In this document: piece by piece, positions 38,847 through 49,734 of the stretch
Layout: each line of letters starts with the position of its first letter
How positions within the stretch are numbered: position 1 is the first letter of the stretch
Source of the DNA: an uncultured Alphaproteobacteria bacterium
GTDB taxonomy: Bacteria; Pseudomonadota; Alphaproteobacteria; Rhizobiales; Methyloligellaceae
Assembly: GCA_963786425.1 (NCBI GenBank)
Contig: CAWAZB010000001.1
Span: 672,254 to 736,253 of the forward strand
Reading direction: 5' to 3'
Length of the DNA stretch: 64,000 nucleotides
Translations under genes and position numbers: made by a program
Notes under the pieces: model-generated
Databases searched by the model: none
What the model saw: the letters and a program-made list of their open reading frames with translations, nothing else
What the model was told of the DNA's origin: nothing

Positions 38847-38898
38847 GTTGGTAGCGGAGGAGGACTTCGAACCCCCGACACGCGGATTATGATTCCGC
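38847..38898 (-). repeat. att site: copy of the 3' part of tRNA-Met
   Basis: 52-bp direct repeat of 49656-49707, differing only in the T-arm (ACTT vs GACT on the + strand). Confidence 0.95.
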
Positions 38899-39045
38899 CT
38901 GCCTCTGCTGATTTAATTCATTTTTTAGACAACATGTCACGTTTATGTCGCGTCCATTATAAGTAGCGTGCAGCCAAGACAGCTAAGGGATATATTGAAC
39001 GGAGTTCTCTGCAGGCGTCCCTCTTCTGGCATTGGGAGATCCATC

Positions 39046-39411
39046 ATGAAAAAACCGGCTTCGCTAGGACTAAGTTGTATCACTGCGTGCGCTCTGGTGT
39101 TTTTCGCGACGGCGCTGACCTTCCAAGATGCCGACGCCGCCACCAGCAGCATCAAGTGCTCCAATGGCACCGTGACGGTCTCAACCGGCAACGCGGGCGG
39201 ATCCTGTGTGAAGGAGGGATCCATAATTACCTGCGGTGGTGTAGGGGGCGGGGGCTCGGTCGGCGGAGGATGTGACGCAGGTGGCAAGGTATCGTGTGGT
39301 AATGCAACTGGAAGTGCCACTTGCACCATAGCAAAGACAGCGATAGGCGGCGCTCCCAGGCCTAAGGTCAATGTGGCACCAGCGCAACGCCGCGGGGTTG
39401 AACCACAATAA
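39046..39411 (+). CDS. Secreted Gly/Cys-rich small protein (element cargo)
   Basis: GGAG RBS, signal peptide ending ADA, six mature Cys. Confidence 0.65.
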   Translation: MKKPASLGLSCITACALVFFATALTFQDADAATSSIKCSNGTVTVSTGNAGGSCVKEGSIITCGGVGGGGSVGGGCDAGGKVSCGNATGSATCTIAKTAIGGAPRPKVNVAPAQRRGVEPQ

Positions 39412-39419
39412 TTATATCT

Positions 39420-40620
39420 CTACGCGAGCAACGCGCTCTCGGCAGCATCCAGCTCTTTCGTATCATCGCCGCGCGGGAACAAGTGCCCGTAGCGATCATA
39501 GGTCATTGTGATTGATGAGTGGCCTAAGCGCTCCTGCACCACCTTCGGCGGCAACCCTAGTCCGCCGTCTGCGGGCCGGTTTATGCACCACGAGGCGTAG
39601 AAGTGCCGCAACCCATGCATGCCAGTGTATTTTGCCTTCAGGATACGCTCGCCCTTCTTGTCCTTTTTGCCCGTGTCTATCGCGAGGCCGGCTGCGAGCT
39701 GAGCGGGGATCAGCCCACGGTTGATGATATTCGCTAACGACTCGACATTGCCATGGCCGTTGGGAAAGACAAGATCGAGGTCACCCTTGGGGCATGCGAG
39801 CTTCCATTCCTTAAGCGTGTTAGCCACGAATTTTCCGAATGGGATCGTTCGCTCTCCAGCTGCAGATTTCGGCTTGCCAATTTCGTTGTATCTGTCGGCC
39901 CGCTGACGAACATGCAGCTCGCTCTTTCTGAGGTCGACGTCTTTCCAAACAAAGACCGCGCAATTCGGATGCACGTAGGCCGGTGAAGGTCGCTAGGACT
40001 AAGAGCGGGCGCCACCGACCCTTTGAACCCCCGATGATGCTCTTGATCTCGCCAGGCGTCGGAATGTCGACCCCGACCTTCAGCTTACCTTTCTGCCGCT
40101 TTTCGGCATTGTGTTCCTTACCGCGGCGCCGGTTGCGACGAAGATCGCGTACCACATTCCGCGCAGAGAGACCTTGCTCTTGGGCATCTGCTAACAGTGA
40201 TCCAAAACTTCCCACGACTTTGCGGATCATTGCGGCCGAACGCTTCTCCTCCCGCAAACGGTCCTCCAGCTTGCGAACAGTCTGGGCGCTGAGTTCCGAA
40301 AGCTTCATGCGTCCGATGAATGGTACGATGTGCTGATCCACGTGTTGACGATACTGATCAGTCGTTGAACGCTCGAGGCCTGCCGCCTCGGCGGCGTTGA
40401 TCCAACTTACCGCCGCCTCTTTCACAGTAACGCTCTTACTCGGCGCTATATGCGCGCCCGCCCTAACGTCGACCCGCACCTCCGAGTGACGGGCATCGGC
40501 ATCCTTCTTTTTTGAAAAGGTTTCGATGTGTCTTTCACCTTGCTGGTCGACATAGTCGACGACCCACGCCTCACGCTCTTGGCCTGATCGTGTGACCCAT
40601 TGTCTCTTACGAACCGACAT
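39420..40620 (-). CDS. Tyrosine integrase, one apparent frameshift at ~39950
   Basis: Catalytic R (TGLRASELR), K (PKSAAG), HGLRH, LGHSS, TYDRYGH. Confidence 0.93.
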
Positions 40621-40879
40621 GCCTCCCTCCCCGGAGTGAATGGGAACGTGTTGCATCATGTTGCAATGGTATCCGCTTGTCAACGCCGGAAACCAATTGA
40701 CGCGAGTCGTAAGTAGTTGCAGGATCTTCGAATCACCGCGGGCGAGGCTGACCGCAACAGCCGTTATCAACCCGCAGTGAGTTTCCATTCCAAGAGAGAA
40801 ACCGCGCCGCGACGGAGTGGCGCTACCGCAAATTTTTCACTGCCGAGACCGCATCTCGGCAAACGCGGAGTTTCTCTTT

Positions 40880-41140
40880 ATGAAAAACAAACACTCGAAA
40901 ATTGACAATCGGTGCGATCTCGACCGCCCGATCTGGGGTGCACGCAACATTGGTATTGAAGCTGGCCTAGGTGACGATAAGAAAGCCTGGCGTCGCGCTT
41001 TTTACTTGCTCGAAAATGGTTTGCTCCCCGCGAAGAAGGTCGGGGGCTGTGTTGACGATGAGGGAAGACACAAAGGCGGACGCTGGGTAAGCACGCCGCG
41101 CCTCATTCGCCAAGCGCTGAATCCGGTGGTGGAGGCATGA
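40880..41140 (+). CDS. Excisionase/AlpA-like small DNA-binding protein
   Basis: IWGARNIG...AFYLLENGLLPAKKVG..RW motif of winged-helix Xis-like proteins; divergent from the integrase. Confidence 0.7.
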   Translation: MKNKHSKIDNRCDLDRPIWGARNIGIEAGLGDDKKAWRRAFYLLENGLLPAKKVGGCVDDEGRHKGGRWVSTPRLIRQALNPVVEA

Positions 41141-41141
41141 G

Positions 41142-41501
41142 ATGGCACTCCACCATAAAAAACGAAACCCGACGCGGGCGGCGTCGGGCTCGTTGCCTGT
41201 AGATCGAGAACGGCATCAACGATCTGTCGGCGAAGGTAATCGCGTTCGCTCTGCCGATCAAGTCATCGGAATAATCGACAAGGGCGCCGCCACTCGGCTG
41301 CGCGTCACGATCACGCTTTGGCGCGGGTTCGACCGGCTAGAGATCCGAGATCTCGCGGTCCTCGGCGCTGGCATTATTACGCCGATCGGCACGCCGATCT
41401 GGGTGCCCTTTCACAAGATCCGCGAGCTCATCGACGTGCTGGAAGCCGCGGAGGCGGAGGTCAGGGCGCGCGGGTTAATCGGGGGCGCGCCATGCCGATG
41501 A
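41142..41501 (+). CDS. PC4-like ssDNA-binding protein (putative)
   Basis: IIDKG..TRLRVTITLWRG.DRLEIR...P...GI-like pattern. Confidence 0.5.
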   Translation: MALHHKKRNPTRAASGSLPVDRERHQRSVGEGNRVRSADQVIGIIDKGAATRLRVTITLWRGFDRLEIRDLAVLGAGIITPIGTPIWVPFHKIRELIDVLEAAEAEVRARGLIGGAPCR

Positions 41502-42385
41502 CGACCCTTCCAGCCGTAATGCAGCGCGCCCGCGAAGTCAGGGCTCGGACCGATCTGCCGCCGCAGTCAAAGGTCATCCACGATGCACTGATAGACTGTC
41601 TCAACCTCCATAGTGGCGGCTGCTTCCCCTACGACGAGACGCTCGCCGAACGATGCGGGATGAGCGTCCCCTCGCTCCGGCGCTACCAGAAGCCGCTGAA
41701 GGAAGCGGGGCTGATCGCCAAGGCAAAGACCGGGCGCGCTCCGGTCTACACGTTCCCAGGACTGACCGACGACCAATCAGCATGTGATAGGTCAGACCAA
41801 TCAGCACCTGATAGGTCGGGCTTGAAGGCTGATCGGTCTGATCGGTCAGCACCTGAGAGGTCTGAGCGATCAAATACTGAGCGCGCATATAAGGAAGAAC
41901 AGAACAGAGAACAGAACAGAGAACAGAACATTCTCGCGTTTGAAATGTTTTGGGGTGCCTATCCTCGGCAAATAGCGAAGAAGACAGCCCACAAGAAGTT
42001 CGACTCCATCATCAAGGCCGGAGAGGCAACGTCAGACGAGCTAATCCATGGAGCCGTCCGCTATCAGCTGGAGTGCAAAGATCGAGAGCCTCGCTACATC
42101 AAACATCCGACAACGTGGTTGAACGGCGGCTGTTGGGCCGACGAGCAAGCTAAAAACGTCGCGGCTCCTACCGCAGCTGACAACGCACAGCGCGCGGAGA
42201 ACATCAGGAAATACAGAGAGAAGCAGTTGGCGGAGCGAGACGCGGAGGAAGCCGCGCGCAAGAGCAGGATCCCATCACCCGAGCAAAAAGCCCGTGCTGT
42301 TGAAATGCTGAAACAAGCGAAGATGCGCTTGTTGCAAGTAGCAGACCCGCGCCTGAAGCCGCGCAAAACACCTGGAGGCCCCTGA
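41498..42385 (+). CDS. Phage-type replication initiator (HTH plus conserved C-terminal domain)
   Basis: N-terminal HTH (FP..ETLAERCGMS..SLRRY..L..AGLI), repeat linker, FEMFWGAYP..K..A..F and YIKHPTTWLN motifs; ATGA coupling. Confidence 0.85.
   Translation: MTTLPAVMQRAREVRARTDLPPQSKVIHDALIDCLNLHSGGCFPYDETLAERCGMSVPSLRRYQKPLKEAGLIAKAKTGRAPVYTFPGLTDDQSACDRSDQSAPDRSGLKADRSDRSAPERSERSNTERAYKEEQNREQNREQNILAFEMFWGAYPRQIAKKTAHKKFDSIIKAGEATSDELIHGAVRYQLECKDREPRYIKHPTTWLNGGCWADEQAKNVAAPTAADNAQRAENIRKYREKQLAERDAEEAARKSRIPSPEQKARAVEMLKQAKMRLLQVADPRLKPRKTPGGP
41771..41930 (+). repeat. Iterons and A-rich repeats inside rep (putative origin)
   Basis: 24-bp units at 41771, 41795 and 41840; GAACAGAACAGA repeated ~2.8 times at 41897-41930. 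Confidence 0.75.
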
Positions 42386-42551
42386 ATTTAGCTCGCCCGA
42401 CCCTTTGTCGACGCAACACGCGCGCGACACGAGCCGTGAAAGCCTTGCTTCATAAGGATGAATCATGCGACAAGCGGACTTGTTATCCGCTCACAGGGCC
42501 GAGGACTATCGGGGCGGCAGGGCAGGAAAAGGCCGCAGATACGGGTGAGGC

Positions 42552-42875
42552 ATGACGCAAAAGCTACCGGGATTGGACGGCAGAACGCGAGGCGCGAAGC
42601 GGCACGCTGCGCTCTGTCGATCCTTCGAGCATGATCTCGGGCACGCTGCATCCGAGGCTGAGCTTGCGCTGATCCGACAGGCGGCCTCTTGCGTGCTGGC
42701 ATCGGAGGCGCTGCAAGCGCGTGCAGTCTCCGGCGCGGCGTCGGCGGTGGAGCTCGGCGAGCTCGCGCGGTGCGGCAACCTCGCAACGAGGCTTCTACTC
42801 GCTCTCGGTCTCAAGAGCGGCAAGCGAGCGGCCGGCCCCTCACTCCGCGAATACCTTGAGAATCGCGCAGCATGA
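42552..42875 (+). CDS. Putative terminase small subunit
   Basis: DGRTRGAKR..L...DLG..SEA..LIRQAA..LGLK..PSLREYL; translationally coupled (ATGA) to the terL-like gene. Confidence 0.55.
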   Translation: MTQKLPGLDGRTRGAKRHAALCRSFEHDLGHAASEAELALIRQAASCVLASEALQARAVSGAASAVELGELARCGNLATRLLLALGLKSGKRAAGPSLREYLENRAA

Positions 42876-44412
42876 AAGCCCACGTCACCATCACGGAAGC
42901 TCTCAGCGATCCGCAATTGCTCGGCGCTGCCCTCGGCGATCTCCGATCATGGCGTCAATGGGTCACGACCCTTAAGGCCGCGTTCGGAGAGAAGCTCAAT
43001 CGAGCGGAGCGTCGGGCCTTCGATGCCGTAGCAGGGTCACGCAAGCCGCCTCGGGAGCGCGTGAGAGAACTTTGGCTGATCCTCGGGCGCCGATCGGGAA
43101 AGTCACGCATGGCGGCCGCCCTGGCGGTCTACGTCGCCCTGTTGACCGACGCGGCGTCACGCCTGGCGCCCGGCGAGCGTGGCGTGGTGCTCGTGCTTGC
43201 GGCCTCGAAGAAGCAGGCGGCGACGATCCGCAATTATTCCCTCGCTTTCATCGAGGCGAGCCCAATGCTGCGCGAGGCGCTCGACGGGGAGCCGCTTGCG
43301 GAGGAGATCCGCCTTAAAGGTGACGTCTCGATTGAGATCCGACCGAACAGCTTTCGGACGGTGCGCGGCCCGACATTGTTGGCTTGTATCTTCGACGAGG
43401 TAGCGTTCTGGCGCGACGAGACGAGCGCAACGCCGGACCTCGAGACCTACCGGGCCGTTCTGCCGGCACTGAGCACGACCGGCGGCATGTCGATCGGAGT
43501 TTCGAGCCCCTACCGCCGCACCGGCCTTTTGCACAGCAAGTTTAAGAACGCCTTCGGGAAGGATGATCCGCGCGTGCTCGTTGTGAACGCACCGACAACT
43601 GCTTTCAATCCAATGATCGACCAGGGGGTCATTGCAGATGCCGAGCGCGACGACAGGGAGGCCGCGCAGTCGGAGTGGTTCGGCGAGTTCCGCAGCGACC
43701 TTAATGCGCTTCTCGACGACGACGTGATTGACGGCGCCGTCGATCATGGGAGGCCATTGGAGCTGCCGCCGCGGCGGGGCATCACCTACCACTGTTTCGT
43801 CGACGCGAGCGCGGGCCGCCACGACAGCTTCACTTGCGCCGTAGGGCACGCCGAGGACGGCGTGTTTATCGTCGACGCGCTGAGAGGCTTCGCCGCGCCT
43901 TTCGACCCTGGCACGGCCGCTGCCGAACACGCAGCGCTCGCCAAAAGCTACGGCATCACGCGAGTAACCGGCGACGCCTTCGCCGGCGAATGGGTCGCTC
44001 AAGCCTTTCGCGATGGTGGTGTGAGCTACGAGACGAGCACCCTGAACAAATCGGCCCTCTACCTCGAAAGCCTGGTGTGGTGGGAACAGAAACGCGGTCC
44101 GCGTTCCCGATCATCCTGCTGTTGCTCCGCGAGCTCCGTCTCCTCGAAAGGCGCGTGCATCGGTCCGGAAAGGATAGCGTCGACCATCCGCGCGGCGGCT
44201 CTGACGATTTCGCAAAGCTGTCGTCGGTGCTTTCACTTGGCCGTGCGGCACGGAACCGCGGCGTGGTCCGCGTTGGCTTCGGCGCCGGCAGCGGGGGCAC
44301 GATCCAGTTGGCAGCACAAGGAAGCGCCGCCGTGAGCTTCGGATCGTGCAACGTCGATCAGAACGGCCGCGAGCTGACCATCGAGGAGGTCCGCGCGCGC
44401 CGCCGTAGCTGA
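42872..44412 (+). CDS. Terminase large subunit-like protein, apparent frameshift at ~44080
   Basis: Walker A GRRSGKS, Walker B CIFDEVAFW, RNase H-like FVDASAGRHDSF; C-terminus LRELRLLERR..SGKDSVDHPRGGSDD in the other frame. Confidence 0.8.
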
Positions 44413-44465
44413 TCTCTCCTCCACAGTCATGGGGCTGCACTGAATGACGCAAGTTGGTTCTGGTC

Positions 44466-44549
44466 GGGTCGGATGGTGATGCGGGTCGGATGGTGATGCG
44501 GGTCGGATGGTGATGCGGGTCGGATGGTGATGCGGGTCGGATGGTGATG
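44466..44549 (+). repeat. Perfect 17-bp tandem repeat, ~4.9 copies
   Basis: GGGTCGGATGGTGATGC at 44466, 44483, 44500, 44517 and partial at 44534. Confidence 0.97.
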
Positions 44550-44918
44550 GTCGGAGACATCGTGCTTGTTGGCACCAAGGGCGACGAGCCTTGGACCGTC
44601 ACCCAGTTTGCTGGCGGCAATTCATGGTGGGTTCGTAGAGACGAGAGCCACCGCTCCGTGAGTTTCGTGACTGCCGATCTCTCGCTTCTTTTGCGGCCCG
44701 CGATCAACATCGGCGACGAGATGCGATTGAACGGAAGCACCGTCCGCGTGACCGGCTTTCTTGGGAACGCGGTCAAAGTGGAAATCGCGGCGAAAGATCG
44801 GCGGGTGCCGTTGCGGCATGGCGGCACTGCCGCCTTCGGCGTCGGCTCGGCCGTTATCGGCAGGGGCGAGCTCGTCGCAGAGAACGCCAACGAATTACTT
44901 CGCGCACATGGAGGGTGA
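44541..44918 (+). CDS. Hypothetical protein (beta-rich, SH3/KOW-like appearance)
   Basis: VGDIVLV..WTVTQF and INIGDEMRL..VRVTG duplicated pattern; start lies in the last repeat copy. Confidence 0.55.
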   Translation: MVMVGDIVLVGTKGDEPWTVTQFAGGNSWWVRRDESHRSVSFVTADLSLLLRPAINIGDEMRLNGSTVRVTGFLGNAVKVEIAAKDRRVPLRHGGTAAFGVGSAVIGRGELVAENANELLRAHGG

Positions 44919-44921
44919 AAA

Positions 44922-45746
44922 ATGGGAATCAGACAAATTCCGCTCGACATCAATGAGGGCATGGTCGGCCGCTTCCGCGAGCGCGACCCGCTCACGAAAG
45001 AGATCATCGCCGACAGGCCGCTCGATCAACTGACTGAGGCGGCGTCCCACATGCAGGGCGCAGCGACACGCTTGCACGACCTGGCGGCCGCAATCGTCGG
45101 CGACCACAGCTTTGCGGGCCATGCCGGCCGAGTGAAATTCCCCGAGACGGCTACAAAGGTCTTCGCCGAAGCAGACAAGCGGATGACTGAAGCTATGAAA
45201 GCCGCCTTCGCCGAAATCGGTCGCGTGCAAAATTCAATCCGACCGGCTGCGCCTGTCAACCACTTGGCAAGTGAGGTCCGCGCGCGCCTTTCACAGATGA
45301 AGCCAGACCATCGGCGCCAAGTGCTCGCCGATGCCGACGACATGACGATCGGCGCGCTCGCGCACGGGCCGCATTGGCTGAGCGGTGTGACCAAAGAGGA
45401 AGCCGAACTACACGTTCGGGGATGGACCGAAAGAAAATATCCCGACGAGAGCGCGCGGCTGCGCCGGATTGGACAAGCGCTTTCAGCCGCGCAGCGGATC
45501 AACGTCTCTTTCAAGGGTTACGTCGAATTGGTCGCAAAGGATCTGGCGACGCCGCAAGTCGCCTCGGCTAAGCGCGTGCACGCCGCCCACGTGGCTCAAC
45601 GGGCGGCGCATCCCAGTATAGACGTCGTCCGTGGGTACCCTCAGTCCTCCGCCCTGCGCCACCGGGCGGGAGCGCCGGTTAAGTGGTTTGCCGGCGCTCC
45701 CGCTCATGGTTCAAAGCCGCCGCGGGGTCCCTGTTCTTCCCCTTAG
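44922..45746 (+). CDS. Hypothetical alpha-helical protein (3' end uncertain)
   Basis: GGAGG RBS; 274-aa ORF whose last ~40 codons run through a strong hairpin. Confidence 0.6.
   Translation: MGIRQIPLDINEGMVGRFRERDPLTKEIIADRPLDQLTEAASHMQGAATRLHDLAAAIVGDHSFAGHAGRVKFPETATKVFAEADKRMTEAMKAAFAEIGRVQNSIRPAAPVNHLASEVRARLSQMKPDHRRQVLADADDMTIGALAHGPHWLSGVTKEEAELHVRGWTERKYPDESARLRRIGQALSAAQRINVSFKGYVELVAKDLATPQVASAKRVHAAHVAQRAAHPSIDVVRGYPQSSALRHRAGAPVKWFAGAPAHGSKPPRGPCSSP
45664..45705. other. Strong hairpin at the core/cargo boundary
   Basis: GCGGGAGCGCCGG-N12-CCGGCGCTCCCGC perfect 13-bp stem, no U-tract. Confidence 0.6.
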
Positions 45747-45830
45747 GCTCGACGGCCAGCTGCTTGCGAACCGCGCCCTCGCCAACTCGATTTGCAGGCC
45801 AACTAGCCCGCTGGGACGCGGGGACGCTCG

Positions 45831-46493
45831 ATGTTTGGGATGCTCGATTACCGAGCACAAAAACTATTCTGGCTACTCAGCCTGCCAATCCGCTTACTCA
45901 ACAGGCTTGCGTATTTCGCGACATCTTCGCCGCCATTTGGATCGCGCAGTCTACGCAATTTCCTTTGCTAGCGCAGATCGTCATTGGCTATCTCACCTTC
46001 GAAATTGTTGGCCTACTCTGCGAATATTGCCTTCGTCTGGCTTATATTTTGGTCGTTCAACAAAGTTCTTTCTCCTTCGTCATAGACGTGGTCCCTGCGC
46101 GGGAGAAAACGCCGTTGAAGCTCAGGCCGGTGTGACCAATGGCAAAGCGATATGGCTAAATCTCAAATGCGATCGAGATATCGGCGGTTTGGCCAAATCC
46201 CAACTTCATACCGCCGGAATTGCATCATCGCTCAATTGGCGTGCCCGTGCCTTTTTTAACGGTCGCGAACGGATTGAGGTGAGGAGTTCGATTGATTGAA
46301 AGAAAATTACGAATTAACTGGGAAAGCAACCGGGTCAACTGACTCCAGAGGAGATAAAGGGGCTTGTTAGCGATTTGGATTTCAATTGGGCGGAACAAGC
46401 AATCGCCAACCCACAGTTCTTTCGGCACTCGCTTTGGGCCTCGGACTTATCACGGGCGGGCTGATTTACATGTGGCTGGATAAAGCTGGGTGA
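45831..46493 (+). pseudogene. Multiply frameshifted membrane-protein gene
   Basis: MFGMLDYRAQKLFWLL start; hydrophobic segments continue across several frames to ...[11 protein letters not shown]. Confidence 0.5.
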
Positions 46494-46560
46494 GCAAATG
46501 CATCTTCCTACGCGGTTCAGCCTTGAGAGGATGGCCCTGCACGGTTGGGAGCGACATTTT

Positions 46561-47602
46561 ATGGAGAAGCGATATCAAGTTTGTAAGTTCGACTTTCGTC
46601 GATCTCCGAGAGGAGCGCCAAGCCGTCACGCAGGCGCTACTTAGCCTGGATCATTTCCCGGCTGGCATGGAACTATGGCCGGCTAGTGATGACGAACTCA
46701 TGGATGTTGATACAGTCGGTGATAGACGACAGCGATTACTACCTACTTGTTGTCGGCGGGAGATACGGCACCACTGATCCTGATGGAGTGAGCTATACCG
46801 AACGTGAATATGATTATGCGGTCGTAAAGGGCCTCCCGGTGCTCGCCTTTATTCATGAGAATCCGGCCGACATTGCTTCAGGAAAGACGGATCAAAGCGA
46901 CGCGCTTGCGGGGAAGCTCGAACACTTTGTTGCTAAAATAAAAGGATCGAAGCACGTCAAGTTTTGGAAGAATGCTGACGATCTGAAGGCGAAAGTGATT
47001 TAAGCGATATCGGTAGAGACAAAGCGTAATCCGAGAGAAGGATGGATCCGCGCAGGTCAAGCCTCGGATCCGCGCCGCCTCAATGAGCTTCTTCAAGAAG
47101 TAGATCGTTTGAAAAAGGAACTTGCAGAAACAAGCGCCGCCCCACCCGCGGGGACTGATCAATACGCCCAGGGCGATGACAGTCGCGTTTTTACGGTTGT
47201 TTATCGAGATGAAATCCTAAAACGATATGAGGAGGACATTCGGGTTTCTTGGAATGAGGTTTTTTATATAGCCGGTCCCGTTATGATCGAGGAGGCTTCT
47301 GAGCGGCATATGAGAGTTAGGCTATCGGAGGGACTTATCGCCTACGCCCCAAACGCACCAGACCTTAGCCAACTACCCGGTGCTACAGACGACAGCTTTG
47401 AAACCATCAAAATTCAACTTATTGCGCTAGGTTTGATCCAGAAGAGCCGGCGAAACACGCGGTAACAGACAACACGATATATTGGTCGCTTACCGCCTTT
47501 GGCGAAGCTCAGTTCATGAAACTGCGGGCTCGGAGAAAAGGCCCGGTGCCGAGCGTGCTCGACCAGTCGACGTGTCTGCAAGCCCGCGACGAAAAGACAT
47601 GA
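46561..47602 (+). pseudogene. DUF4062-domain protein with several frameshifts and an in-frame TAA
   Basis: MEKRYQV(F)[42 protein letters not shown]; C-terminal IQLIALGLI...YWSLT. Confidence 0.75.
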
Positions 47603-47834
47603 ATTGGGCACACGCAAAGATCTCGCCTGAGAAACTAAGTTTGCGGGGACGCGGCAAACTTTGCCGTGACGGCGCCAGCCTTCCGCTATAAGTGCGAGCG
47701 ATGAAGGCTCTACTGCTAATCATCGCCCGCATGCGGTGGCTGCGCTTCCGGATCGCGCTAGCGAACCTTGCGCTTGATCTTCGGCTTCCCCGCCTGACCC
47801 TGTGGATCGTGCCGGAGCTCCTCCCAAGAAATCA

Positions 47835-47864
47835 TTGACAGCGAATTGCTCACGCGCTTATCGT
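47835..47864 (+). promoter_or_regulatory. sigma70-type promoter
   Basis: TTGACA-N18-TATCGT upstream of ATG 47900. Confidence 0.55.
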
Positions 47865-47899
47865 CTCATGTGCTCACTCACTCACGAAAGGGCCAGAAC

Positions 47900-48143
47900 A
47901 TGAAGGCGGCAACAAAGCAGAAGGCTCCAGTGACGGCGCGGGCCGTCATGAGCGCACATCAACAGGAAGCTCTCGGCGCAAAACGTTAAGCTCATGAAAG
48001 CGCGCGGGCAGATGTTCCTGGACGTGGGCGATTACTACTTAGTCAACGAGCGCTTGAATGTGGTGTGGCAAAAGGATGTTGATCTAGAGGACTACGCCCG
48101 CGAGATCGGATGCCTACAGCCTTGGGAGGCGGTGCAGTCATGA
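47900..48143 (+). CDS. Small hypothetical protein (one apparent frameshift)
   Basis: MKAATKQKAPVTARAVMS then INRKL..LMKARG..DVGDYYLV..KDVDLEDYAREIG in the other frame. Confidence 0.45.
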
Positions 48144-48346
48144 CTAATAAGACCAGATCGCTAGTTCTCGCCGAGGAAATTAAGGAAATGATCGAAGGCC
48201 ATAACATGGTCGACGTTCTTACGGCGCTGACTACCTGCATTGCGGAGGTCGTTGTCGTGAACCGGGCCGTGCTCGACATTGGAACGGTCGTTGATGCTTT
48301 GAAGACGACGACGGCTGCGCTTCTTGACGCTCCGAGGAGGCACTAG
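48140..48346 (+). CDS. Small hypothetical protein
   Basis: GGAGG RBS and ATGA overlap with the preceding ORF. Confidence 0.45.
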   Translation: MTNKTRSLVLAEEIKEMIEGHNMVDVLTALTTCIAEVVVVNRAVLDIGTVVDALKTTTAALLDAPRRH

Positions 48347-48636
48347 CCCTCGCCCCGCCTCGCCGGCCCCGGCCTTGCGCGGGACCCTAATCCGCTTTGG
48401 ATTGGTCTCTCGCCTTGGCCTCCGCCAATAGCCTCGACCTCGGCGAGACTGGCCTTCGCCTGCGCTAGCGACTGCGGGGTCGTGTCTTCCAACTTGCCGC
48501 CAGAATGCCGCTCTCCGGTGTGTATGAGTCCGGATTCCAATTGCTCGATCTGTCGCTTGAGCGATTTACGCGGACGCTCACAATGTTCGACGATCAGATC
48601 TTGAAGAAGGACACGGCGCGCGCTCCGTCTAAACGC

Positions 48637-49500
48637 TCATGACGCGGAGCTTATATTCGAATTTGCATCGAGTGCCGCAAGCCACCGCACATGAGCTGCG
48701 CCGAGGCTTACCAGATCGACTGCAAGCTCGAACGGAGGCTCCGACACCTTATCGGCACCGGGTTCATGTCGGTAATAGGCGCCAACATTATCTTAGCCGC
48801 CCAAACTTAAAATCAGCTTCTCACTGGAAACGAGCGAAGTTGGGTCGTCACCATAGAGTTGCTGAACCAAAGGAGACAATCGGCTCTTTACTACGGAGTT
48901 CGTCAAACGAGGCTCCTTAGGATACATGAGCCGAAAGAGCCCCTCAGCCGCGGAGAAGATCGCTCGCAAAGAATACTTTCCTTGCGGCGGGATAGCGGTG
49001 AGGAAGGCGTGAGACTGTTGCACGTTTTCGAGCACGCTCTTGTAACGCGATGGCCAGAGTTGAGATGGTTACTTGCCGATTGGCCTCATATTTGGCATCG
49101 ACTTAGTAGTGAACTCCCCCGCCGTCATCGACCGGGACGCGACGTTCTCCTCAGCAAAAATTCGTCGGACTTCGTCACGATACCTTCCTGGGGCGCGGGG
49201 CTCCTGAATTCCGGTTAGCAATTTCTTGACCAGAAACTTGTGTGCAACCGTCACGCTGTCCAACATAAATTTCAGCTCACAACGCTTGTAAAACTCGGCG
49301 TAATCACTGAAGCCATGCTGATAAGGCACGTCGACGCCCATCTCCCGAATCCATTCCGACGCGACATCAGAGAGATCTTTGAAGGTGTAGACCAGCGTGG
49401 CGAGTCGCCTTTCTCCATTATAGGGCTGTCGTCGCATGGTGCCCCGCGTTCCACATAAACATGGGGGAAATCGCTTCCCCACAGGCCGCCCGTTAGCCAT
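48637..49500 (-). pseudogene. AbiJ-like / HEPN-type putative abortive-infection gene, disrupted
   Basis: Reassembled MANGRPVG..ERG..RRIFAEEN..RAIFSAAEGLFRLM..YYRHEPG..LAVDLVSLGAAHVRWL; frameshifts plus TAA at 48793. Confidence 0.5.
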
Positions 49501-49657
49501 GCCTTCGGCCCTTCTCGTTGTCCTCTCCGTGTCGCAAGCATGTTGCACGGGGTCGCTGCAACTGAATACCAACCGTCTGAAAATCAACGGTATTATGTTG
49601 CAGTGTCGCTTCGAAGACGCGCAGACATACAAAAACCAGCTAAATCATTGAAAATGT

Positions 49658-49734
49658 TGGTAGCGGAGGAGGGACTCGAACCCCCGACACGCGGATTATG
49701 ATTCCGCTGCTCTAACCAGCTGAGCTACTCCGCC
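49658..49734 (-). tRNA. tRNA-Met(CAT), elongator type
   Basis: GGCGGAG acceptor stem, GCGGA-ATCATAA-TCCGC anticodon arm, GGTTCGAGTCC, encoded CCA. Confidence 0.97.

What the first reader, a model, noticed from the sequence alone, without database searches (positions are those of the whole stretch)
38847..49707. Satellite-like element with small and large terminase but no portal or capsid
Seen: att repeats in tRNA-Met, an integrase divergent from xis-like, PC4-like, rep, terS-like, terL-like and two unknown genes, then cargo. Established: classical PICIs carry at most TerS, capsid-forming PICIs carry terminase plus portal and capsid, and P4-like satellites carry Sid/Psu. A compact element with a whole packaging motor but no recognisable head genes fits none of these. 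It may package into helper proheads with its own motor, or the terminase may be repurposed (inference).
Basis: partly seen in the sequence, partly recalled or inferred. Interest (0 to 1): 0.8.

Follow-up and report, generated by a model that had tools for sequence, protein, structure and literature searches.

The report
Decayed terminase-carrying, capsid-less integrative element
This 10.9-kb island in a tRNA-Met gene is a broken copy of a widespread, apparently undescribed family of small mobile elements in Alphaproteobacteria that carry their own DNA-packaging enzyme but usually no capsid or portal genes. They are therefore probably parasites of helper phages.

Summary
The island is real: 52-nt att repeats (38847-38898 and 49656-49707), the right one being the 3' part of tRNA-Met. 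It holds an integrase, a phage-type replication initiator with internal iterons, a small helical gene (S) overlapping the start of a large terminase (TerL), then two further genes and cargo.

This copy is decayed. The integrase has one frameshift and TerL has two, which put its last nuclease motif out of frame. A DUF4062 cargo gene has a frameshift and a TAA stop. Long-ORF cover is 0.45 in the element and 0.72-0.83 in the flanks.

The architecture is not a one-off deletion. TerL relatives in about 90 species genomes lie in integrase-bearing loci; the 23 with clear att repeats measure 7.9-19 kb and run integrase, replication genes, S, TerL, variable genes. 89 of 94 loci keep a TerL ORF of 440 aa or more.

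The gene after TerL here (X, 274 aa) has a confident all-alpha model, so it has neither an HK97 nor a portal fold. The portal of related phages has a homologue in only one of these genome loci. A few relatives carry tape-measure genes, and one carries protease plus capsid.

The best reading is a dead member of a new family of terminase-carrying satellites. "TerS" rests on position only, and no helper or packaging has been shown.

The parts
38847..38898 (.). attL: a diverged copy of the 3' part of tRNA-Met
   Evidence: 52-nt direct repeat, 94% identical to 49656-49707; sequence read.
38968..39411 (+). Small ORF between attL and the integrase. It may encode a secreted Gly/Cys-rich protein (a signal-peptide-like MKKPASLGLSCITACALVFFATALTF starts near 39046). 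It is cargo of unknown function.
   Evidence: Translation. No Pfam, PHROGs or PADLOC hit. No homologue in about 110 related loci. Codon-position GC is atypical, so coding status is uncertain.
39420..40620 (-). Tyrosine integrase pseudogene with one frameshift near 39945-39953
   Evidence: The N part (in ORF 39820-40788) matches phrog_1 positions 120-310 and Pfam Phage_int_SAM_3 and Phage_int_M. The C part (ORF 39420-39974) matches phrog_1 positions 311-441 and Phage_integrase, in another frame. Homologues 41-65% identical in L037, L090, L195 and L089. Same-frame read-through was checked by arithmetic on the L090 coordinates only; L037 and L090 each have an intact integrase ORF of 444 and 399 aa.
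40817..41140 (+). The true start is probably near 40913.
   Evidence: Clusters with 76-aa ORFs at the same position in L037 and L047. No family hit, so an excisionase or regulator role is inferred from position only.
41142..41501 (+).
   Evidence: No hit in Pfam, PHROGs, PADLOC or PDB. No homologue in related loci. Codon-position GC is coding-like.
41492..42385 (+). Replication initiator (HTH plus DnaD-like/lambda O-like), with internal iteron-like repeats at 41761-41886
   Evidence: phrog_270 at E 8e-30, other replication-initiation PHROGs, and Pfam HTH_36. Repeat family D2. Not shared with relatives, which carry other replication modules.
42552..42875 (+). S: a small helical protein whose stop overlaps the TerL start. 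It is a candidate small terminase by position only.
   Evidence: BLAST clustering finds homologues directly upstream of TerL in 59 of 94 loci, and tblastn with the window's S finds 36 loci. The AF2 model has pLDDT 91 and four helices. No fold match in PDB and no Pfam, PHROGs, PADLOC or PDB sequence hit.
42872..44412 (+). Large terminase (TerL) pseudogene. The ATPase and most of the nuclease domain are in frame to about 44090. Two +1 shifts lie near 44093-44097 and 44118-44122, and the C-terminal nuclease motif is in another frame.
   Evidence: phrog_2 at E 5e-21. 56-65% identity to more than 1400 proteins of 470-530 aa. Frame analysis, against the family consensus. The family profile hits PDB terminase nuclease domains.
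44465..44549 (.). Perfect 17-nt tandem array of about 5 copies, inside a roughly 510-nt insert between TerL and X
   Evidence: family D1. No equivalent array after TerL in 93 related loci. TerL and X are 19-46 nt apart in L013 and L016.
44541..44918 (+). orf125: a window-specific ORF of unknown function
   Evidence: Codon-position GC is coding-like, 0.64/0.48/0.72. No Pfam, PHROGs, PADLOC or PDB hit. No homologue in related loci. By established knowledge, too short for a portal or HK97 capsid fold.
44922..45746 (+). X: an all-alpha, elongated helical protein that always lies immediately downstream of TerL in its sub-clade. Function unknown.
   Evidence: Homologues adjacent to TerL in 19 loci. 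2625 cluster representatives in the HMMER scan. The AF2 model has pLDDT 83 and pTM 0.71, all helices, with residues 233-264 disordered. No significant fold match: PDB best E 0.08, BFVD best E 0.095.
46490..47465 (+). DUF4062-family cargo gene, broken by one frameshift near 46694-46699 and an in-frame TAA at 47001-47003
   Evidence: Three pieces match phrog_15411 positions 8-49, 47-145 and 187-300, and Pfam DUF4062. Frames read.
49069..49632 (-). 187-aa minus-strand cargo ORF of unknown function. The same frame continues past its stop codon, so it may be truncated.
   Evidence: No Pfam, PHROGs or PADLOC hit.
49656..49734 (-). attR (49656-49707) within tRNA-Met(CAT), 49658-49734

Best explanation
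The island at 38847-49707 is a pseudogenised, probably immobile copy of a member of a large family of small integrative elements. The host is a Methyloceanibacter-like bacterium (Hyphomicrobiales).

The family occurs mainly in Alphaproteobacteria. In 23 relatives the elements are delimited by att repeats, at one end of which lies a tRNA gene, and measure 7.9-19 kb. They combine:
- a tyrosine integrase;
- an exchangeable replication module;
- a conserved packaging module, made of a small helical protein S overlapping a bona fide large terminase;
- in the window's sub-clade, an all-alpha protein X directly after TerL.

The family has no conserved capsid, portal or tail genes.

The likeliest life cycle is inferred, not shown:
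1. A helper phage infects or is induced.
2. The element excises and replicates from its own origin.
3. S recognises the element's DNA and recruits the element's TerL.
4. TerL docks on the helper's portal and fills helper-made proheads with element DNA.
5. X may act on the helper's head assembly or on the motor, or may serve as a chaperone for the tape-measure genes that some relatives carry.

In this genome the cycle is dead. The integrase, TerL and cargo genes carry frameshifts or stops.
For: The island:
- The att repeats and tRNA-Met are confirmed.
- Breaks are mapped in the integrase, TerL and DUF4062.
- ORFs of 150 aa or more cover 0.45 of the element and 0.14 of its cargo, against 0.83 and 0.72 of the flanks. 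The decay is therefore local.

TerL:
- It is a real terminase.
- Walker A (GRRSGKS), Walker B (DE) and the nuclease aspartates are invariant or nearly so in 32 relatives.
- 89 of 94 related loci keep an ORF of 440 aa or more. The count includes the window's own broken copy, whose out-of-frame ORF is 487 aa. The gene is therefore maintained in most relatives.

The family:
- 23 relatives have perfect 27-58-nt att repeats, one copy of which overlaps a tRNA gene. The sizes are 7.9-19 kb.
- The order is integrase, replication module, S, TerL.
- The smallest element (L046, 7.9 kb) has room after TerL for X and one 91-aa ORF only.
- X is all-alpha.
- No PHROG family is shared by more than 2 of 132 ORFs downstream of TerL.

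Positive control:
- Phages with 42-43% identical TerL (L035, L036) show a portal and a head-morphogenesis gene right after TerL.
- That portal has no homologue in the genome loci except L064.

Known phages:
- Only 4 weak hits (at most 31% identity) turned up in 50,697 phage records.
Against: - No helper phage, pac or cos site, excised circle or particle has been seen for any member.
- S has no detectable similarity to any known small terminase.
- X has no known fold relative. It is detectable in only 19 loci, and other elements carry unrelated genes of about 200 aa at that position.
- Some relatives do carry structural genes. L013, L041, L195, L196 and Rctr16k have tape-measure genes. L194 has protease plus major capsid, and L064 has a portal-MuF fusion. 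The family is therefore not uniformly capsid-less.
The genome may be a long-read MAG.
Confidence: 0.6

Rival explanations
1. The frameshifts are assembly or consensus errors, for example from a long-read metagenome bin or strain heterogeneity over a mobile element. On this reading the element is really intact and possibly active.
For: The genome has 5 contigs and 92.8% completeness, and its nearest relatives are mostly MAGs, so a long-read MAG is plausible. The integrase shift lies in a TTT run. Reads could not be consulted.
Against: - The two TerL shifts and the DUF4062 shift are not in long homopolymers.
- DUF4062 also has a substitution-type TAA stop.
- The flanking chromosomal genes are long and intact: cover 0.83 and 0.72 against 0.45 in the element.
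- TerL relics with internal stops occur in three other genomes of the genus.
Confidence: 0.15
2. The island is what remains after deletion of the head and tail genes from an ordinary prophage or from a capsid-forming satellite. The missing portal and capsid would then be an accident of decay, not a design.
For: - This copy is visibly decaying.
- L194, nested in the same TerL clade, has protease, major capsid and tape-measure genes.
- L064 has a portal.
- L046 ends in a 91-aa fragment of a tape-measure gene.
- Phages with 42% identical TerL exist.
Against: - The same capsid-less TerL-X arrangement is found in 18 other loci, including the nearest relatives L016 and L037. TerL and integrase ORFs are intact there, and the att repeats are perfect in those that have them.
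- Element sizes of 7.9-10 kb recur independently at different tRNA genes.
- The capsid and protease of L194 have no homologue in 94 genome loci.
Confidence: 0.12
3. The S-TerL(-X) module is kept for a purpose other than packaging the element. It might interfere with a superinfecting phage's packaging as a defence, or act as a nuclease or ATPase in the element's own replication or maintenance. The elements would then spread by other means.
For: No pac site, helper or particle is known. S is unlike known small terminases. Cargo next to the module includes defence-like genes such as DUF4062. Satellites are known to double as anti-phage islands (PMC10085698).
Against: Both catalytic centres of a packaging terminase are conserved. 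The module sits where packaging genes sit in PICI-like satellites, after the replication module. No PADLOC model matches S or X; TerL itself was not scanned against PADLOC. Interference and self-packaging are not mutually exclusive.
Confidence: 0.1
4. The family consists of very small autonomous viruses whose capsid and portal genes are too diverged to recognise.
For: Many downstream ORFs have no annotation. GenBank holds a 16.7-kb record, 'Virus Rctr16k', with integrase, replication protein, terminase, protease and a tail-like gene.
Against: The 7.9-10-kb members have only 1-3.7 kb after TerL, too little for a portal, capsid and tail. X, the only conserved gene there, is all-alpha. The downstream gene content is not conserved.
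Confidence: 0.03

Closest known systems
Capsid-forming PICIs (cf-PICIs)
   Same: They are small integrative satellites with their own TerS and TerL, and they depend on a helper for the rest of the virion. TerL is listed as a feature that separates them from classical PICIs (PMC10085698).
   Different: cf-PICIs are defined by a full head module: major capsid, portal, protease, head-tail adaptor and connector. None of these is present here or in most relatives. One relative (L194) has protease and capsid but no detected portal.
Classical PICIs / SaPIs
   Same: Shared features are the size class, a site-specific integrase, a small divergently transcribed gene next to the integrase (unidentified here), a replication module followed by a packaging module, iteron arrays after the replication gene in relatives, and variable accessory or defence cargo.
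   Different: PICIs carry at most TerS and use the helper's TerL (my knowledge, and PMC10085698). Here a complete TerL is the most conserved gene of the family. No AlpA, Stl or Ppi-type proteins were identified in the window.
P4-like satellites
   Same: They integrate at tRNA genes, replicate by themselves and depend on a helper for the virion. X resembles the P4 size-determining scaffold Sid in size (230-275 aa) and in being elongated and all-alpha. That resemblance comes from my knowledge, not from a test.
   Different: P4 has no terminase. No Sid, Psu, Delta or P4 alpha-primase hit was found, and the fold search of X returned no P4 structure.
EPIPs of Mycolicibacterium (PMC12822802, preprint)
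   Same: They are satellites of about 11 kb, reported to carry a tape-measure gene and a small terminase. Several relatives of the window's element also carry tape-measure genes.
   Different: EPIPs use a serine integrase. Their gene list includes scaffold and capsid genes, although the same preprint also states that they lack capsid proteins. They have no TerL and are actinobacterial. The window's element has no tape-measure gene.
VEIMEs and PICMIs (PMC9618062, PMC10803314)
   Same: They are small integrase-bearing elements of environmental bacteria, including Alphaproteobacteria, that are packaged as concatemers in helper capsids without capsid remodelling. That is a plausible way for 8-19-kb elements to fill full-size heads.
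   Different: The reports mention small-terminase homologues and 'motor-like ATPases' but no TerL as a family core. PICMIs are minimalist Vibrionaceae elements; I did not read that paper beyond the abstract listed.
Earlier scan finding e1-4202793 (Chitinophagaceae-like bacterium)
   Same: It is described as a 15.8-kb integrated element of a terminase-carrying, capsid-less candidate satellite family that sometimes carries tail genes.
   Different: The phylum is different, and no sequence look-alike of this TerL was found in the scan's index. It is a parallel case, not the same family, and it is an unchecked AI note.

Membership tests
tRNA-integrated site-specific element | Direct repeats, one of them the 3' part of a tRNA gene, bracketing a tyrosine integrase | tested here: met
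   The integrase is frameshifted.
Large terminase (TerL) | N-terminal ASCE ATPase with Walker A and B motifs | tested here: met
   phrog_2 and phrog_9 hits. GRRSGKS and the DE motif are invariant or nearly invariant in the 32-sequence alignment, and are present in frame in the window.
Large terminase (TerL) | Complete C-terminal RNase H-like nuclease domain in one reading frame | tested here: not met
   The family profile hits solved terminase nuclease domains. In the window, the stretch carrying the conserved GGSDD motif is shifted out of frame by two indels.
Small terminase (TerS) | Sequence or fold similarity to a known TerS family (DNA-binding domain plus oligomerisation core) | tested here: not met
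   No hit in Pfam, PHROGs, PADLOC or PDB sequences. A confident model (pLDDT 91) has no significant PDB fold match. BFVD was not searched for S.
Small terminase (TerS) | Small gene directly upstream of TerL, translationally coupled to it and co-conserved with it | tested here: met
   Its stop overlaps the TerL start at 42872-42875. Homologues lie at the same position in 59 of 94 loci.
cf-PICI | Own major capsid protein, portal, protease and head-tail adaptor or connector | tested here: not met
   No such hit in any ORF of the element. X is all-alpha. Portal and capsid homologues of related phages and of L194 are absent.
Classical PICI | Integrase, regulator pair, primase-replicase, at most TerS, and no TerL | tested here: not met
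   TerL is present and is the family's most conserved gene.
P4-like satellite | Sid, Psu, Delta and alpha primase-helicase | tested here: not met
   No corresponding Pfam or PHROGs hit. SatelliteFinder itself was not available.
Phage satellite (general) | Mobilisation in particles made by a helper phage | not testable with these tools
   No helper was identified. The small IMG/VR contigs with this TerL have no terminal repeats.
   The model of X has nine helices and no strands of 3 or more residues. No capsid or portal appears among the fold matches.

The most novel reading that the evidence does not exclude
The elements built as integrase, replication module, S, TerL and X (7.9-19 kb where att repeats delimit them) form a new, widespread class of phage satellite in Alphaproteobacteria. 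They bring a complete terminase of their own, and sometimes a tape measure, but take capsid, portal and tail from a helper. Recognition between satellite TerL and helper portal, not TerS piracy or capsid resizing, would be the key parasitic interface. X would be a new kind of assembly-hijacking protein.
Probability: 0.4. Interest if true: 0.75.

Novelty: new variant of a known kind. Interest (0 to 1): 0.58.

Why it matters
Known satellites fall into two groups. Some borrow the helper's large terminase (P4, PICIs, PLEs). Others bring a whole head as well (cf-PICIs).

A family that brings only the motor would fill the gap between them. It would also raise a concrete question: how does a foreign TerL dock on the helper's portal and outcompete the helper's own enzyme?

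The family is common in soil, plant-associated and aquatic Alphaproteobacteria, including Mesorhizobium, Bradyrhizobium, Phenylobacterium and Acetobacteraceae. It carries variable cargo, so it could be an overlooked route of gene transfer and phage interference in those groups.

Several members sit in cultured strains, so the idea can be tested directly. The window's own copy is only a relic, and its value is as the pointer to the family.

Tried and rejected
Searches that found nothing:
- Pfam, PHROGs and PADLOC on S, X, orf125, orf119 and orf147.
- PDB sequence searches with profiles of X and S, and with orf119 and orf125.
- A word-based homologue search with X alone, which found only itself. 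With the alignment it was swamped by short forms.
- The search for related loci with the X alignment, which failed because no stretch was conserved enough.
- Profile comparison of X with the genes after TerL in the related phage L035 and in 47 other loci: no relationship.
- A search for 'Rctr16k' and for descriptions of terminase-only satellites in the paper library. The haloarchaeal satellite preprint was irrelevant.

Ideas rejected:
- The 17-nt array as a conserved pac site or regulator site. It has no counterpart in 93 relatives.
- ORF 45631-46299 as a gene. Its codon-position GC is flat.

Inconclusive:
- Small IMG/VR contigs carry this TerL but have no terminal repeats, so they say nothing about encapsidation.

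- The look-up of sequencing runs.
- The fetch from genomes.
- The genome search.
- As a result there was no read check, no look at the resident head gene cluster beyond L032 and L033, and no prevalence count by order.

Full report
**1. What is there**

A 52-nt direct repeat (38847-38898 and 49656-49707, 94% identical) brackets 10.86 kb. The right copy is the 3' part of tRNA-Met(CAT) at 49658-49734 on the minus strand. GC drops to 0.50-0.58 in parts of the element, against 0.61-0.65 outside it.

From left to right the element holds:
- a small ORF of uncertain coding status, possibly encoding a secreted Gly/Cys-rich protein;
- a tyrosine integrase on the minus strand;
- a small divergent plus-strand gene;
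- a 119-aa ORF with no match;
- a replication initiator (phrog_270, E 8e-30; Pfam HTH_36) with iteron-like repeats inside the gene at 41761-41886;
- a 107-aa gene, here called S, whose stop overlaps the start of TerL;
- a large terminase (phrog_2, E 5e-21);
- a perfect 17-nt x5 tandem array;
- a 125-aa ORF;
- a 274-aa ORF, here called X;
- about 3.9 kb of cargo.

No ORF hits a portal, capsid, protease or tail family. The host is a Methyloceanibacter-like member of the Hyphomicrobiales, judged from a housekeeping-size protein that is 73-81% identical to those MAGs.

**2. This copy is broken**

- Integrase. The N part (phrog_1 positions 120-310) and the C part (positions 311-441) lie in different frames, joined at a TTT run near 39945-39953. 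Homologues 41-65% identical occur in related elements. Both parts lie in one frame in L090 (coordinate arithmetic), and L037 and L090 each have an intact integrase ORF.
- TerL. It matches relatives in frame 2 to about residue 402. The next 10 or so residues (NAVRVPDHPAV) are in frame 3, and the conserved LLRELRLLERRVHRSGKDSVDHPRGGSDD is in frame 1. Two +1 shifts lie near 44093-44097 and 44118-44122. The last acidic nuclease motif is therefore lost from the encoded protein.
- DUF4062 cargo gene. It is in three pieces, matching phrog_15411 positions 8-49, 47-145 and 187-300, with a frameshift near 46694-46699 and an in-frame TAA at 47001-47003.

ORFs of 150 aa or more cover 83% and 72% of the two flanks, but only 45% of the element and 14% of its cargo. 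The damage is therefore local and not a property of the assembly. Three of the four indels are not in long homopolymers, and one lesion is a substitution.

I keep a 15% rival that some lesions are consensus errors.

**3. The architecture is a family trait**

TerL (first 403 aa) has more than 1400 homologues of 470-530 aa at about 55-65% identity in public data. Contexts of three of them and of about 90 species genomes show the same plan: integrase, small genes, a replication module, a gene of about 135 aa, TerL, and then variable genes. The replication module is of differing kinds (VapE, Toprim plus AAA_25, others).

BLAST clustering of 2211 ORFs gave TerL in 94 loci, one integrase cluster in 58 and the S cluster in 59.

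In 23 relatives a perfect 27-58-nt repeat, one copy of which overlaps a tRNA gene, delimits the element. Sizes are:
- 7.9 kb (L046);
- 8.4 kb (L052);
- 9.0 kb (L037);
- 9.7-10.1 kb (L080, L102, L051, L054, L042);
- 11.4 kb (L019);
- 13-19 kb for the rest.

89 of 94 loci keep a TerL ORF of 440 aa or more; the count includes the window's own broken copy, whose out-of-frame ORF is 487 aa. Walker A, Walker B and the nuclease aspartates are invariant or nearly so. A profile of the family hits solved terminase nuclease domains. TerL is thus a maintained and presumably working enzyme in the family. The window's copy is the exception, as are fragmentary relics in three other genomes of the same genus.

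**4. Are head genes hidden in it?**

X has homologues directly after TerL in 19 loci and 2625 cluster representatives in the full HMMER scan. With a 19-sequence alignment, AlphaFold gives a confident model (pLDDT 83, pTM 0.71). It has nine helices, including long hairpins at 32-60 and 67-105 and a long helix at 174-229, followed by a disordered tail and no sheet. Foldseek finds nothing significant in PDB (best E 0.08, generic helical bundles) or in BFVD (best E 0.095).

I did not fold it.

As a positive control, two IMG/VR phages with 42-43% identical TerL show a portal (phrog_146, E 1e-104 to 1e-127) and an SPP1 gp7-like head-morphogenesis gene right after TerL. An HMM of those portals finds only one other homologue among the genome loci, in L064.

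Of 132 ORFs downstream of TerL in 23 delimited elements, no PHROG family occurs more than twice. The region after TerL and X is variable cargo, for example an IS66 transposase and a nitronate monooxygenase.

**5. Nuances that limit the claim**

The family is not uniformly free of structural genes.
- Tape-measure-like proteins occur in L013, L041, L195, L196 and the GenBank record 'Virus Rctr16k'.
- L046 ends in a 91-aa tape-measure fragment.
- L194, a 16.2-kb IMG/VR contig, has integrase, helicase, S and TerL, then a head protease, a major capsid protein and a tape measure, but no detected portal.

In a FastTree TerL tree (no support values examined), L194 is nested among X-bearing elements. 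The window groups with L016 and L037, both X-bearing, and the portal-bearing phages sit in a distant clade.

The module after TerL is therefore exchangeable. The capsid-less TerL-X form is the common state around the window, so the window is not a fresh deletion product of a cf-PICI-like element. The lineage clearly trades morphogenesis genes with phages.

**6. S and X: what can be said**

S is co-conserved with TerL and translationally coupled to it. Its model (pLDDT 91) is a four-helix unit. It matches no TerS family or structure. 'Small terminase' is therefore a positional inference.

X's role is unknown. Three candidates, all inference:
- a scaffold-like or size-determining protein acting on helper proheads; it is similar in size and helical character to P4 Sid, from my knowledge and not from a test;
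- an adaptor between the element's TerL and a foreign portal;
- a chaperone for the tape-measure genes that some relatives carry, which is weakened because most X-bearing elements have no tape measure.

**7. Mechanism proposed**

Shown:
- an integrative element at a tRNA gene;
- its own replication initiator with iterons;
- in relatives, short iteron arrays between the replication gene and S, as in PICI-type replicons;
- a conserved terminase.

Inferred:
- helper-triggered excision and replication;
- recognition of element DNA by S and cleavage and translocation by the element's TerL into helper proheads;
- units of 8-19 kb packaged either as concatemers, as reported for VEIMEs and PICMIs (PMC9618062, PMC10803314), or into re-sized heads.

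In this genome the only HK97 capsid and portal genes lie about 105 kb away, and the portal frame holds a TGA. No obvious working helper is resident.

**8. Comparison and novelty**

SatelliteFinder's four families either lack TerL (P4-like, PICI, PLE) or, in the case of cf-PICI, combine it with a full head module (PMC10085698). VEIMEs are reported with small terminases and 'motor-like ATPases'. EPIPs carry TerS, a tape measure and, in the preprint's gene list, capsid genes, although the same preprint also states that they lack capsid proteins.

Four full-text searches found no description of a terminase-only satellite. That is absence from the open-access library searched, not proof.

No sequence look-alike of this TerL is in the scan's index.

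I rate the family as a new variant of a known kind (a phage satellite), and the window's copy as a relic of it.

**9. Verdict**

- Observation: partly confirmed. The island and its genes are real, but the integrase and TerL are broken, and three labels are unsupported.
- Interpretation: partly supported.
- Interest: 0.58. The family is worth following in cultured carriers; this locus itself is dead.

Noticed in passing
L033:1453-2658 (own genome, C1:569146-570141, about 105 kb upstream of the window): The genome's only Pfam Phage_portal match is interrupted by an in-frame TGA and split into ORFs of 237 and 138 aa. The neighbouring HK97 capsid gene (L032, 421-aa ORF) is intact. This may be a decaying GTA or prophage head cluster.
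   Followed up: partly
G025:C36, G012:C23 and G002:C122 (loci L003-L005, L008-L012): Three other genomes of the same genus hold fragmentary relatives of this TerL (36-40% identity), split into pieces in G025 and G002. Internal stop codons are listed in G025, in the weaker matches of G002, and in a secondary frame in G012 (whose best match has none). One genome (G014, L002) has an intact 515-aa copy. Terminase relics seem common in this genus.
   Followed up: no
L194:5047-13006 (IMG/VR UViG_3300028380_000742, 16.2 kb): This element has integrase, helicase, S and TerL (55% identical), followed by head protease, major capsid protein and a 1140-aa tape measure, with no detectable portal. It is an odd intermediate between the capsid-less elements and cf-PICI-like ones.
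   Followed up: partly
Related loci, about 0.7-1.4 kb upstream of TerL (e.g. L023:9145-9292, L092:8845-8954, L084:8488-8636, L081:8937-9112): Short 9-12-nt repeats of 2-4 copies, sometimes in inverted pairs, and one 35-nt x5 array recur in the gap between the replication gene and S. They are likely replication origins, or possibly packaging sites.
   Followed up: no
window:44465-44549: The perfect 17-nt x5 array lies in a roughly 510-nt insert between TerL and X, which relatives lack. The 125-aa ORF starts in its last copy. No comparable array follows TerL in 93 related loci.
   Followed up: partly
window:38968-39411: This ORF between attL and the integrase may encode a Gly/Cys-rich protein with a signal-peptide-like start. 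It has no homologue in related elements and is possibly a moron or bacteriocin-like cargo. Its coding status is uncertain.
   Followed up: no
L034 (GenBank KX853514.1, 'Virus Rctr16k', 16.7 kb): This is a deposited 'virus' from a methane-oxidising enrichment culture. It has integrase, replication protein, a distantly related terminase (30% identity), a head protease and a tape-measure-like 'tail protein', but no annotated capsid or portal. It may be a satellite of the same broad kind filed as a phage.
   Followed up: partly
window:47480-49070: The cargo between the DUF4062 gene and the minus-strand 187-aa ORF has only short ORFs in shifting frames. It is probably the wreck of one or more further genes.
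   Followed up: no
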